The notes beneath the pieces are model-generated. The model ran no database searches and was not told the DNA's origin. It was given only the letters and a program-made list of their open reading frames with translations. A DNA stretch of 64,000 bases from Escherichia coli (GTDB lineage: Bacteria; Pseudomonadota; Gammaproteobacteria; Enterobacterales; Enterobacteriaceae), in NCBI RefSeq assembly GCF_044324785.1, contig NZ_CP172127.1; one strand, 5' to 3'. This document shows, piece by piece, positions 15,698-59,710 of the stretch; position 1 is the stretch's first letter; each line of letters starts with the position of its first letter. The translations under genes and the position numbers were made by a program.

Positions 15698-19598
<3,901 letters not shown>

Positions 19599-24616: not shown

Positions 24617-24660
24617 ATAAAACAAAAGGCCCAGTCTTTCGACTGAGCCTTTTGTTTTAT
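24617..24660 (-). terminator. rRNA operon terminator T1
   Basis: Reverse complement ataaaacaaaaggctcagtcgaaagactgggccttttgttttat immediately 3' of 5S. Confidence 0.8.
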
Positions 24661-30187: not shown

Positions 30188-30294
30188 TACAATGCGGGCG
30201 AAAAATAAGGATGCCCCGTTAGGGGCGTTAGCTGAGTTTTTCGCGAAAAATTCAGCTAACGCTCTCTGTAATAGTCAAATCCAGGGGATTTACC

Positions 30295-35978: not shown

Positions 35979-36024
35979 GAGTAAAAATGACTCGCCACCC
36001 ACAGCAGGCGAGTCATTTTTACTC
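35979..36024. promoter_or_regulatory. ZraR upstream activator site: large inverted repeat
   Basis: gagtaaaaatgactcgcc-N10-ggcgagtcatttttactc, perfect 18-bp arms between the divergent sigma-54 promoters. Confidence 0.7.
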
Positions 36025-36065: not shown

Positions 36066-36082
36066 TTGGCACGAAAGATGCA
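36066..36082 (+). promoter_or_regulatory. Sigma-54 promoter for zraP
   Basis: TGGCACgaaagaTGCA, near-consensus -24/-12 elements, about 35 nt upstream of the zraP ATG. Confidence 0.75.
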
Positions 36083-36117
36083 ATACCCAAAGTAAGACAA
36101 CCACTGGAGGATTAACC

Positions 36118-36544: not shown

Positions 36545-37246
36545 TCAGAACGTTTTCTCGTTGGGTTGCCAGCGACAGAAATCAGAGTTTGCCACTAACA
36601 GTAATTGCGAACCTTCGGGCGCTTCCAGCCATGCCACGCTGACATCAACAGAAGAGCGGCTCTGGCGGCGCTCGATATGCGCTATCGCCTGCGAATCTAA
36701 ATCAGGTTTAATGGTTTGCCCTTCGCAGGTGGTCACGGTCTGTTCCATCGCATGCCAGCGCCCCTGGCGCAGCACGACTCTTCCCTGACGTAAGGCATCG
36801 CTAATCTGGCGGATCTGATCAGCACGATAACGGTATAAATCGATTTGGTCGTTAGAAAGCTGCTGCTTTTCCCCATCGGATTCACGTTGCATAAAGCTCA
36901 GATCGCCGCGATCGTCAAAACGCGCGCGAATGTTCACCGGCGGTTTGCTGTAAACATTGATATTGATGAGCGTGAGGTTATCGCCCTGCCAGCGATACTC
37001 TCGCGTCGTGGTATCGCCACTGCGCCACGGGCTAAACACGGCAAGCAGATGCACATTATCGCCACTGTCTTTTCGCCAGATGCGTACCGCGCCCTGGTCT
37101 TCAGCAAATCCACTGGCGGTAAAGGGAGGAAGTGAAGAGTTGTGACTACAGGCAGTGAGAAACAGAGCGCCAGCCAGCATCAATGATCGACGCCAGAAAG
37201 ACAAAAGGGGTGAAACCACCCCTTCGTTAAAACTGTTCACTGCCAC
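36545..37246 (-). CDS. yjaH: DUF1481 family protein
   Basis: 233-aa ORF; conserved neighbour of hupA. Confidence 0.75.
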   Translation of the reverse strand: MAVNSFNEGVVSPLLSFWRRSLMLAGALFLTACSHNSSLPPFTASGFAEDQGAVRIWRKDSGDNVHLLAVFSPWRSGDTTTREYRWQGDNLTLININVYSKPPVNIRARFDDRGDLSFMQRESDGEKQQLSNDQIDLYRYRADQIRQISDALRQGRVVLRQGRWHAMEQTVTTCEGQTIKPDLDSQAIAHIERRQSRSSVDVSVAWLEAPEGSQLLLVANSDFCRWQPNEKTF

Positions 37247-37252
37247 GCAATC

Positions 37253-37525
37253 TTACTTAACTGCGTCTTTCAGTGCCTTGCCAGAAACAAATGCCGGTAC
37301 GTTAGCTGCGGCAATTTTGATTTCTTTACCGGTCTGCGGGTTGCGGCCAGTACGCTCAGCGCGGTGGTTCACTTTGAAGGTACCGAAACCAACCAGTTGT
37401 ACAGCATCGCCTTCTTTCAGAGACTCAGTAATTGCAGCCAGAGTGGACTCCAGAGCAGCTTTAGCCTGGGTTTTGGACAGTTCTGCTTTCTCTGCAATTA
37501 CATCAATCAGTTGAGTCTTGTTCAT
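37253..37525 (-). CDS. hupA: Nucleoid protein HU-alpha
   Basis: 90-aa [93 protein letters not shown]. Confidence 0.97.
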
Positions 37526-37711
37526 AAGTTATCCTTACAATGTGTTTATCGCTTGCTAAGCATCGAGTGCGACGGAAATGCCAGAATAGCACTCTCCTGC
37601 ATACACGCACCGATAGCCACTTTTTTTCGCCCCCCAAATGTAGACCAGACGGGGGGCGAAAGGGAAGACTCCAGGTACGACAAATCAGGCGTTAAATCAC
37701 GTTTTCTGGTC

Positions 37712-38302
37712 TTATTGCTGAAAAATTATACCAATATTGCTCTCACCCGCCTCACGCAGGTCTGCCCTAAGGCCTTTTATCAGCTCGATATCGCGTTCTT
37801 CGCACTCAGCTAAAAGTCGGAATATTTCCCACTGAATATCCCATTCTTGCTCTACAGCTGGGTTTTCTTTGAGCTCTTCATCGCTCATTTCGCGACCAGC
37901 CTGAGTCATTTCCAGCATCGCAACGGTCGTGATGGAGGTCTTACTCACTTCCACCGCGTGTTCGAGCGTTTCACCACTCAAACGCGAATGGACCAGTTCA
38001 CTTAACGCCACGCATGCATCGATTGCCGGATAAACGCCGTACAGATCGAAATCGTCGGCTGAAGGAATCGCTTCTTCAAATTTCTCCAGTTGGCTGTCGA
38101 AATTTACTTTTGCGTCTTTAACGGTCAGCGTTTCCCAGATGAGATCGAGAATACGGCGGTAAATTTGCCCATCACCAAAACCGGTTTGCTGGCAGAACAT
38201 GGCGTAATTGGGGTACATGCGTTCGCATAAGCAAGCCATGAAAGTGACATGCTGCCAGCTTTCCAGGCGCTCCAGACGCAGATGAATTGGGTTTTGTAAC
38301 AT
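37712..38302 (-). CDS. yjaG: DUF416 family protein
   Basis: 196-aa ORF; conserved position between nfi and hupA. Confidence 0.8.
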   Translation of the reverse strand: MLQNPIHLRLERLESWQHVTFMACLCERMYPNYAMFCQQTGFGDGQIYRRILDLIWETLTVKDAKVNFDSQLEKFEEAIPSADDFDLYGVYPAIDACVALSELVHSRLSGETLEHAVEVSKTSITTVAMLEMTQAGREMSDEELKENPAVEQEWDIQWEIFRLLAECEERDIELIKGLRADLREAGESNIGIIFQQ

Positions 38303-55624: not shown

Positions 55625-55943
55625 AGGGTTCCTCAGCTCGCTGACAAGTCGACCCATCTGTCCATTGAGCGGACAGTTTGTGCAACACTATTTTGTTGAC
55701 CGGAAAATGGAACACTTTCCGCAATGCCTGTTGCTATCACGCTTAAACCATTTCATTGCGATTTACACAGAACGGGCGTCCTGTCGCAGTATATTAAGTC
55801 GTCGATAGAAACAAGCATTGAAAGGCACAGCAGTAGTCAAACAGTGTGAAACGCTACTGGCGCCTTACAGCGCAAAAAGGCTGGTGACTAAAAAGTCACC
55901 AGCCATCAGCCTGATTTCTCAGGCTGCAACCGGAAGGTTTGGC
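55625..55943 (-). promoter_or_regulatory. rplL-rpoB intercistronic region (attenuator / RNase III processing region)
   Basis: 319-nt non-coding spacer between rplL and rpoB; function assigned from knowledge of the operon, not from motifs resolved here. Confidence 0.5.
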
Positions 55944-59684: not shown

Positions 59685-59710
59685 AAAAGGGCATCAAATG
59701 ATGCCCTTTT
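59685..59710 (-). terminator. Intrinsic terminator downstream of tufB
   Basis: Hairpin aaaagggcatcaaatgatgccctttt about 30 nt after the tufB stop. Confidence 0.75.

What the first reader, a model, noticed from the sequence alone, without database searches (positions are those of the whole stretch)
37600..37660. C6/G6 hairpin with flanking T-tract in the yjaG-hupA spacer
ccccccaaatgtagaccagacgggggg forms a 6-bp pure G:C stem. On the plus strand it is preceded by a T7 tract, and on the minus strand (the direction of yjaG and hupA) it is followed by A-rich sequence rather than a U-tract. It is therefore not a canonical terminator for yjaG and might act as a terminator for antisense readthrough or as a protein-binding or processing site upstream of hupA.
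Basis: seen in the sequence. Interest (0 to 1): 0.15.

Follow-up and report, generated by a model that had tools for sequence, protein, structure and literature searches.

The report
The hupA promoter, not a hairpin element
The G:C-rich inverted repeat between yjaG and hupA in E. coli is real, but it is simply the already-mapped core promoter of the HU-alpha gene (its "loop" is the -10 box and transcription starts inside its second arm), and the pairing itself is not conserved in related bacteria, so the finding is ordinary.

Summary
Window 37625-37661 carries an 11-bp perfect inverted repeat (plus one G·T), longer than the 6 bp reported, with T7 on the plus strand, in the E. coli yjaG-hupA spacer. 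The interpretation mostly fails. The published hupA start site (-105 from the ATG) is window 37630 on the minus strand, the last G of the G6 run. Salmonella 5'UTR cloning oligos start at the homologous G. The "loop" therefore holds the -10 hexamer TACATT, the C-rich arm lies in the 18-bp promoter spacer, and the G-rich arm is the discriminator, +1 and first transcribed bases. hupA mRNA cannot contain the hairpin. In 78 Enterobacteriaceae genomes the -10 hexamer is invariant and the loop 99.8% identical, against 50% at yjaG four-fold sites. The arms are less conserved (68-93%). There are 0 compensatory changes in 12 pairs. Hairpin energy runs from -24.4 (E. coli, the strongest) to -7.6 kcal/mol. 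In Kluyvera and Pluralibacter a consensus scan calls TTCACA-18-TACATT at the same place. Neither strand has a 3' U-tract, published Term-seq lists no 3' end there on either strand, Rfam has no match, and the sequence is single-copy. Verdict: the known sigma70 promoter hupAp, with incidental complementarity. Interest is low.

The parts
37661..37666 (-). -35 hexamer of hupAp, TTCCCT (3 of 6 matches in E. coli; TTCACA, 5 of 6, in Kluyvera and Pluralibacter)
   Evidence: It lies 18 bp upstream of the -10 hexamer. The scanner calls TTCACA-18-TACATT at the homologous position in L037 and L047.
37643..37660 (-). 18-bp promoter spacer, TTCGCCCCCCGTCTGGTC, which contains most of the 5' arm of the inverted repeat
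   Evidence: Geometry relative to the mapped TSS. The C-run is 93% identical and GTCTGGTC is invariant across 78 genomes.
37650..37661 (-). 5' arm of the inverted repeat, TTTCGCCCCCCG (-31 to -20)
   Evidence: The outer TTTCG is only 68% identical across genera.
37637..37642 (-). -10 hexamer TACATT (-12 to -7), inside the 'loop' of the hairpin
   Evidence: Position relative to the TSS. It is 100% invariant in 78 genomes and is called by the scanner in orthologues.
37631..37636 (-). Discriminator TGGGGG (-6 to -1), the first half of the 3' arm
   Evidence: The G-run carries uncompensated substitutions (GGAGGG, GGGAGG, GGAAGG, GGTAGG, GTGGGG) in many genera.
37630..37630 (-). hupA transcription start (+1, G), equal to U00096.3 position 4200176
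   Evidence: PMC2760140 lists the TSS at -105, both as the known value and in its own mapping. Salmonella 5'UTR oligos begin at GCGAAAAAAGTGG. The coordinate link comes from hupA ATG = 4200281.
37625..37636 (-). 3' arm of the inverted repeat, TGGGGGGCGAAA (-6 to +6), split by the transcription start
37621..37627 (-).
   Evidence: Nearly invariant across genera.
37526..37630 (-). hupA 5' UTR, 105 nt, 97% identical across Enterobacteriaceae. Its 5' end is predicted to be unpaired.
   Evidence: The RaiZ/ProQ target region next to the start codon is described in PMC5391140.
37253..37525 (-). hupA coding sequence (HU-alpha)
37712..38302 (-). yjaG coding sequence, the upstream gene on the same strand
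37204..37225 (-). The true intrinsic terminator of hupA (9-bp stem followed by a T-tract), for contrast
   Evidence: Terminator scan. A strong Term-seq 3' end at 4200605 has this sequence.

Best explanation
The inverted repeat is the core of hupAp, the known sigma70 promoter of hupA. On the minus strand the layout is: -35 TTCCCT, an 18-bp spacer holding the C-rich arm, -10 TACATT inside the 'loop', discriminator TGGGGG, +1 G at window 37630, then CGAAAAAAA as the first transcribed bases. The last two together make the G-rich arm. RNA polymerase holoenzyme binds this DNA as a duplex and melts roughly -11 to +2. The hupA mRNA begins inside the 3' arm, so it never contains the hairpin. The complementarity between the C-rich spacer and the G-rich discriminator and start is incidental and strongest in Escherichia. 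Selection acts on the primary sequence, not on pairing. Shown here: the position of the TSS relative to the repeat, the conservation pattern, the absence of covariation, and the absence of terminator features and of listed 3' ends. Inferred from general knowledge of sigma70 promoters (Haugen 2006; Feklistov 2006; own knowledge): the G at -5 on the non-template strand probably contacts sigma region 1.2 and helps a promoter with weak hexamers. The weak -35 fits the reported dependence on activators (Fis, CRP; Claret 1996 as cited).
For: PMC2760140 lists hupA p1 at -105 as the known TSS (Kohno 1990; Claret 1996) and at -105 in its own directed mapping. Position -105 is the last G of the G6 run, which puts TACATT at -12 to -7. 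Oligos JVO-08607 and JVO-10450 for the Salmonella hupA 5' UTR begin at GCGAAAAAAGTGGCTATCG, the homologous G. The scanner calls a single promoter, TTCACA-18-TACATT (9 of 12), at the homologous position in Kluyvera L037 and Pluralibacter L047. Across 78 genomes the -10 hexamer is 100% invariant and the loop 99.8% identical. The arms score 68% (outer 5' arm), 93% (C-run) and 87.5% (G-run). The neutral baseline at yjaG four-fold sites is 50%. There are 0 compensatory changes in 12 pairs. Paired cells are 81.0% against a shuffle mean of 81.2%. Hairpin energy varies from -24.4 to -7.6 kcal/mol among genera with the same promoter. The terminator scan finds nothing here. The Term-seq lists show no 3' end on either strand between 4196488 and 4200253. 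Rfam has no credible match. The sequence is single-copy in 5420 of 5426 E. coli genomes.
Against: I could not read Kohno 1990 or Claret 1996, so the TSS comes from a secondary table plus the Salmonella oligo design. Genome-wide TSS supplements gave nothing: one paper is not held and two had no rows for this locus. In E. coli the hexamers are weak (7 of 12) and the consensus scan does not call the promoter. An 11-bp perfect repeat is rare by chance (0.3 per shuffled window), so 'incidental' rests on the comparative data and not on statistics within E. coli. The C6 run and GTCTGGTC in the spacer are more conserved than known sigma70 contacts require, which is unexplained. hupA is reported as activated by DNA relaxation, so the G+C-rich discriminator does not behave like the fis or rRNA type.
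Confidence: 0.93

Rival explanations
1. RNA hairpin in read-through transcripts. Transcription from nfi or yjaG runs through the spacer, so the full stem-loop forms in a long yjaG-hupA RNA. There it could act as a pause site, a processing site or a stability element. It could also sequester the region without terminating.
For: No intrinsic terminator is found between yjaG and hupA, and the Term-seq lists show no 3' end there, so read-through is plausible. The RNA stem is very stable in E. coli (-26.6 kcal/mol).
Against: There are no compensatory changes, and the stem is broken in many genera. The central C:G pair is lost in 12 of 33 distinct sequences, and energy falls to -7.6 kcal/mol. The loop is more conserved than the stem, the opposite of a structural RNA. 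No 3' end or processing product is listed at the site, and Rfam has no match. Read-through itself was not demonstrated here.
Confidence: 0.04
2. DNA-level structure. On supercoiled DNA, or in the single-stranded bubble, the repeat extrudes as a cruciform or hairpin across the core promoter. This would occlude or modulate hupAp. HU prefers cruciform and distorted DNA, so it could be the sensor for autogenous control of hupA.
For: The repeat has 11 perfect pairs in E. coli, and the DNA hairpins are -14.0 and -13.3 kcal/mol with z of -4.8 and -3.9. HU's preference for cruciform DNA is in the literature (Pinson 1999, cited). Autogenous control is the title claim of Kohno 1990 (own knowledge; paper not read).
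Against: The 13-15 nt unpaired centre is large, which makes cruciform extrusion unfavourable (established knowledge of cruciform energetics; not computed here). Complementarity is not maintained in Salmonella, Klebsiella, Kluyvera and others, which have the same promoter and an HU protein. No direct evidence of extrusion or of an HU footprint was found.
Confidence: 0.02
3. Terminator or roadblock for antisense (plus-strand) transcription entering from the hupA side.
For: The stem is stable on the plus strand (-25.6 kcal/mol).
Against: On the plus strand the T7 tract lies 5' of the stem, and AAAGGGAAG follows it. The loop is 15 nt. The terminator scan finds nothing. The Term-seq lists show no plus-strand (MG1655 minus-strand) 3' end. 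The pairing is not conserved.
Confidence: 0.01

Closest known systems
hupAp, the mapped sigma70 promoter of E. coli hupA (Kohno 1990; Claret & Rouviere-Yaniv 1996; RegulonDB entry as tabulated in PMC2760140)
   Same: It is the same DNA. The TSS at -105 falls at window 37630, the -10 hexamer TACATT lies in the 'loop', and the -35 hexamer sits 18 bp upstream.
   Different: Nothing differs. The only addition is the remark that its spacer and its discriminator plus start region happen to be complementary in Escherichia.
Intrinsic (Rho-independent) terminators
   Same: A G+C-rich stem-loop in an intergenic region downstream of a gene (yjaG).
   Different: There is no U-tract 3' of the stem on either strand. 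The loop is 13-15 nt rather than 3-8. No mapped 3' end exists. The real hupA terminator at 37204-37225 shows what one looks like in this window.
Promoters with G+C-rich discriminators (rrnB P1, tyrT, fis), which are stringently controlled and need negative supercoiling
   Same: Five of the six bases between the -10 hexamer and +1 are G:C pairs. hupA is a growth-phase-regulated, Fis-activated gene.
   Different: The non-template strand is G-rich with G at -5, not C as in rrnB P1. The discriminator is 6 nt, not 8, and the spacer 18 bp, not 16. hupA is reported as activated by DNA relaxation, the opposite of fis. No ppGpp response data were found for it.
Cruciform or hairpin promoters and structure-specific HU binding sites
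   Same: An inverted repeat spans a promoter, and the gene product, HU, prefers distorted DNA.
   Different: The central spacer is long, the complementarity is not conserved, and there is no evidence of extrusion.

Membership tests
sigma70 promoter (hupAp) | An experimentally mapped transcription start immediately downstream | tested here: met
   PMC2760140 lists the TSS at -105 as the known value and in its own mapping. That position is window 37630. Salmonella 5'UTR oligos start at the homologous G.
sigma70 promoter (hupAp) | A -10 hexamer with A at position 2 and T at position 6, ending 5-8 nt before +1 | tested here: met
   TACATT lies at -12 to -7. It is invariant in 78 genomes.
sigma70 promoter (hupAp) | A -35 hexamer 16-18 bp upstream of the -10 hexamer | tested here: inconclusive
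   E. coli has TTCCCT, only 3 of 6, and the scanner does not call it. The orthologous TTCACA (5 of 6) with an 18-bp spacer is called in L037 and L047.
Intrinsic terminator | A G+C-rich stem with a short (3-8 nt) loop | tested here: not met
   The stem is G+C-rich but the loop is 13-15 nt. It is not reported by the scan.
Intrinsic terminator | A U-tract immediately 3' of the stem on the transcribed strand | tested here: not met
   The minus strand has AAAAAAAG after the stem. The plus strand has AAAGGGAAG.
Intrinsic terminator | A transcript 3' end mapped at the site | tested here: not met
   The Adams 2021 Term-seq lists go from 4196488 or 4196185 directly to 4200389 or 4200253. Nothing is listed at 4200145-4200182 on either strand. 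Only two condition lists were seen.
Conserved structured RNA element | Base pairs maintained by compensatory substitutions | tested here: not met
   0 of 12 pairs show a change on both sides. Paired cells are 81.0% against a shuffle mean of 81.2%.
Conserved structured RNA element | A match to a curated RNA family | tested here: not met
   The only Rfam match is mir-4716 at E = 8.9, 16 bits against a gathering score of 76.
Dispersed repeat (REP/BIME, ERIC and similar) | Many copies per genome | tested here: not met
   One copy in the window. Median of one place per genome in 5420 E. coli genomes.
Stringent or supercoiling-dependent promoter with a G+C-rich discriminator | G+C-rich sequence between the -10 hexamer and +1 | tested here: met
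   TGGGGG, 5 of 6 G:C.
Stringent or supercoiling-dependent promoter with a G+C-rich discriminator | Activity that needs high negative supercoiling, or is inhibited by ppGpp/DksA | tested here: not met
   The literature reports hupA as activated by DNA relaxation (PMC8301835). No ppGpp data for hupA were found. This rests on the literature only; there is no experiment here.
Cruciform-forming regulatory repeat | A perfect inverted repeat with a short central spacer, maintained in relatives | tested here: not met
   It is perfect in E. coli but has a 13-15 nt centre. Complementarity is lost in many genera. Extrusion itself cannot be tested with these tools.

The most novel reading that the evidence does not exclude
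In Escherichia specifically, the unusually perfect 11-bp repeat spanning -31 to +6 of hupAp could form a cruciform, or a hairpin in the non-template strand. HU itself, which prefers such structures, might recognise it. That would give a structure-based autoregulatory or supercoiling-sensing switch on the gene for a protein that constrains supercoils. This might relate to the reported activation of hupA by DNA relaxation.
Probability: 0.03. Interest if true: 0.45.

Novelty: already known. Interest (0 to 1): 0.06.

Why it matters
It matters little beyond correct annotation. A strong G:C hairpin in an intergenic spacer invites a terminator or RNA-element reading. Here it is the long-known hupA promoter, and treating it as an RNA structure would be an error. 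There are two small useful points. First, an inverted repeat whose loop is more conserved than its stem is a simple diagnostic that the 'hairpin' is really something else. Second, the hupA promoter and its 105-nt leader are under very strong purifying selection across Enterobacteriaceae (97-100% identity against 50% at neutral sites), including spacer bases with no known sigma70 contact.

Tried and rejected
- **Terminator on either strand:** rejected. No 3' U-tract, a large loop, no scan hit and no Term-seq 3' end.
- **Known RNA family:** rejected. The Rfam E-value scan gave only noise.
- **Dispersed repeat:** rejected. The sequence is single-copy.
- **Conserved RNA or DNA structure:** rejected. 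No covariation, and the stem is less conserved than the loop.
- **Palindromic operator for a dimeric regulator:** considered and rejected. The two arms are not co-conserved: outer 5' arm 68%, outer 3' arm 98%. Arm centres about 26 bp apart are also atypical.
- **CRP site search with TGTGA-N6-TCACA:** found no good site upstream of the promoter. CGTGAtttaacGCCTG, centred near -63.5, matches only about 5 of 10. The only hit at 6 of 10 or better lies in the 5' UTR. The published CRP and Fis sites could not be located, because Claret 1996 is not held.
- **sigma54-like motif in the 5' UTR:** not reported in the sigma54 ChIP-seq paper, so treated as chance.
- **Independent genome-wide TSS and operon tables:** attempts failed. 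Thomason 2015 is not held. The Ettwiller 2016 and Yan 2018 supplements had no rows for this locus. The Conway 2014 and Dar 2018 supplements are not held.
- **Equating the G-rich discriminator with fis or rRNA-type supercoiling dependence:** rejected after finding that hupA is reported as relaxation-activated.

Full report
**Locus.** The window is Escherichia coli. The 451 bases around the finding are 100% identical to many complete E. coli chromosomes, annotated yjaG and hupA. The local gene order is zraS / zraP / yjaH / hupA / yjaG / nfi / hemE. yjaG (37712-38302) and hupA (37253-37525) are both on the minus strand and are separated by a 186-bp spacer.

- On the plus strand the sequence reads T7 (37621-37627), CG, C6 (37630-37635), a 15-nt centre, G6 (37651-37656), CG, AAA.
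- The perfect inverted repeat is 11 bp (37625-37635 with 37651-37661), plus a G·T closing pair.
- Predicted RNA energies are -26.6 kcal/mol on the minus strand and -25.6 on the plus strand for 61 nt, with z of about -3. DNA energies are -14.0 and -13.3 kcal/mol, with z of -4.8 and -3.9.
- Perfect 11-bp repeats with a loop of 20 nt or less occur 0.3 times per dinucleotide-shuffled window. The real window has seven such loci.
- The element is unique in the window and single-copy in 5420 of 5426 E. coli genomes, so it is not a REP-like repeat.
- Rfam gives only noise.
- Neither strand has a U-tract 3' of the stem, and the terminator scan reports only the true hupA terminator at 37204-37225.

**What it is.** Mendoza-Vargas et al. 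2009 (PMC2760140) tabulate hupA p1 with a known TSS at -105 from the start codon, citing Kohno 1990 and Claret 1996. Their own directed mapping gives an identical -105. Counting from the ATG at 37525, -105 is window 37630 on the minus strand, the last G of the G6 run. This gives the following layout, all on the minus strand:

| Element | Sequence | Position relative to +1 | Window coordinates |
|---|---|---|---|
| -35 candidate | TTCCCT | -36 to -31 | 37666..37661 |
| Spacer (18 bp) | TTCGCCCCCCGTCTGGTC | -30 to -13 | 37660..37643 |
| -10 hexamer | TACATT | -12 to -7 | 37642..37637 |
| Discriminator | TGGGGG | -6 to -1 | 37636..37631 |
| Start | G | +1 | 37630 |

The 5' arm of the 'hairpin' therefore lies in the promoter spacer. 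The 'loop' carries the -10 element. The 3' arm is the discriminator, the start site and the first six transcribed bases.

**Independent support for the start site.**
- Smirnov et al. 2017 (PMC5391140) cloned the Salmonella hupA 5' UTR with sense oligos that begin at GCGAAAAAAGTGGCTATCG, the homologue of the same G.
- In Kluyvera (L037) and Pluralibacter (L047) the E. coli TTCCCT is TTCACA. There the consensus scanner calls exactly one promoter in the spacer, TTCACA-18-TACATT (9 of 12), at the homologous position.
- hupA mRNA therefore starts GCGAAAAAAAGUGG and cannot contain the stem-loop. Its 5' end is predicted to be unpaired.

**Comparative test of the structure.** YjaG was used to fetch 80 Enterobacteriaceae loci, and 78 yielded a yjaG-hupA spacer. 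The length is 186 bp in nearly all of them. Conservation is that of a promoter plus leader, not of a hairpin:

| Region | Mean pairwise identity |
|---|---|
| -10 hexamer | 100% (invariant) |
| 14-nt 'loop' | 99.8% |
| 105-nt 5' UTR | 97% |
| C-run | 93% |
| G-run | 87.5% |
| Outer 5' arm (TTTCG) | 68% |
| yjaG-proximal 45 nt | 80% |
| yjaG four-fold degenerate sites (baseline) | 50%, none invariant |

A pair-by-pair count on 33 distinct sequences shows no pair with a change on both sides. Every departure from E. coli breaks a pair. The central C:G is lost in 12 of 33 sequences through GGAGGG, GGAAGG, GGTAGG and similar alleles. Overall pairing of 81.0% equals the column-shuffle mean of 81.2%. 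Predicted stability of the 46-nt segment runs continuously from -24.4 kcal/mol (Escherichia, the strongest of all) through -12.8 (Salmonella arizonae and diarizonae) and -12.3 (Kluyvera) to -7.6. Even one E. coli genome (L003) carries the uncompensated GGAGGG allele. The complementarity is therefore not under detectable selection.

**Transcript ends.** The supplementary Term-seq lists of Adams et al. 2021 (PMC7815308) fix hupA ATG at U00096.3 position 4200281, so the repeat is at 4200145-4200182. In the two condition lists seen, consecutive entries on both strands jump from 4196488 or 4196185 to 4200389 or 4200253. The only nearby 3' ends are these:
- a weak one in the 5' UTR at 4200253, which is window 37553;
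- one inside hupA at 4200389;
- the strong hupA terminator at 4200605.

**Mechanism.**
- *Shown:* the repeat coincides with the core promoter, the TSS splits the 3' arm, and selection is on sequence rather than on pairing.
- *Inferred from established sigma70 promoter biology (own knowledge: Haugen et al. 2006; Feklistov et al. 2006):* the non-template G two bases downstream of the -10 hexamer is the favourable contact for sigma region 1.2. It may compensate for hexamers that match only 7 of 12.
- *Inferred from the literature:* the poor -35 fits the reported activation by Fis, and by CRP (citing Claret 1996).
- *Caveat:* the G+C-rich discriminator should not be read as fis or rRNA-like. A review of supercoiling transcriptomics lists hupA as activated by DNA relaxation, unlike fis and hupB. 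I found no ppGpp data for hupA.

**Rivals.**
- *RNA hairpin in yjaG read-through transcripts.* This is possible in principle, because no terminator separates the genes. It lacks covariation, and I could not document read-through.
- *Cruciform recognised by HU.* This is the most novel reading left. The long unpaired centre and the loss of complementarity in genera with the same promoter weigh against it.
- *Antisense terminator.* This is excluded by sequence and by the Term-seq lists.

**Limits.**
- Kohno 1990 and Claret 1996 are not held, so the TSS is taken from a secondary table and supported by the Salmonella oligo design and the orthologue promoter calls.
- Several genome-wide TSS and operon supplements were unavailable or had no rows for this locus.
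- The sampling is confined to Enterobacteriaceae, because only the 80 best loci are returned.
- The invariance of the spacer bases GTCTGGTC and of most of the C-run is unexplained.

**Verdict.** This is a real sequence feature that is already explained. It is the known hupA promoter, with incidental self-complementarity that is strongest in Escherichia. Novelty: already known. Interest: low.

Noticed in passing
window 35979-36024 and 36068-36083: An 18-bp perfect inverted repeat, GAGTAAAAATGACTCGCC-n10-GGCGAGTCATTTTTACTC, lies upstream of zraP. It is followed by TGGCACgaaagATGCA. This looks like the ZraR enhancer site and the sigma54 promoter of zraP (recalled from memory, not tested).
   Followed up: partly
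window 37568-37583, minus strand (hupA 5' UTR, about +48 to +63): TGGCATttccgTCGCA has the GG-N10-GC spacing of a sigma54 -24/-12 element (9 of 12 to TGGCACG-N4-TTGCA). Its GG and GC are invariant across genera, but so is nearly all of the UTR. The E. coli sigma54 ChIP-seq paper never mentions hupA, so this is probably chance.
   Followed up: partly
window 37553, minus strand (U00096.3 4200253): The Adams 2021 Term-seq lists a weak 'orphan' 3' end inside the hupA 5' UTR, 28 nt before the ATG, in one condition. It lies close to the region that pairs with the RaiZ sRNA in Salmonella.
   Followed up: no
window 37643-37650, minus strand (-20 to -13 of hupAp): The promoter-spacer bases GTCTGGTC are invariant in 78 genomes, and the adjacent C6 run is 93% identical. 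This is more conservation than known sigma70 contacts explain. A regulator site overlapping the core promoter is possible.
   Followed up: no
window 37526-37630, minus strand: The whole 105-nt hupA leader is 97% identical across Enterobacteriaceae genera, against 50% at yjaG four-fold sites. The yjaG-hupA spacer length is fixed at 186 bp in nearly all 78 genomes.
   Followed up: partly
L039 (CACSKA010000020.1): This record is titled 'Chryseobacterium sp. 18061', yet it carries an Enterobacteriaceae yjaG-hupA locus. Its spacer is identical to that of Citrobacter sp. 18056 (L036) from the same project. The assembly is probably mislabelled or contaminated.
   Followed up: no
L005 (Escherichia sp. 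MOD1-EC7003), first 15 bases after the yjaG stop: A 15-bp deletion at the yjaG-proximal end of the spacer gives 171 bp instead of 186. The promoter and leader are intact.
   Followed up: no
window 18319-18349, 24618-24659, 30225-30262, 55879-55904, 59685-59710: These are the other perfect inverted repeats of 11 bp or more with loops of 20 nt or less in the window. They are probably terminators or operators and were not examined.
   Followed up: no
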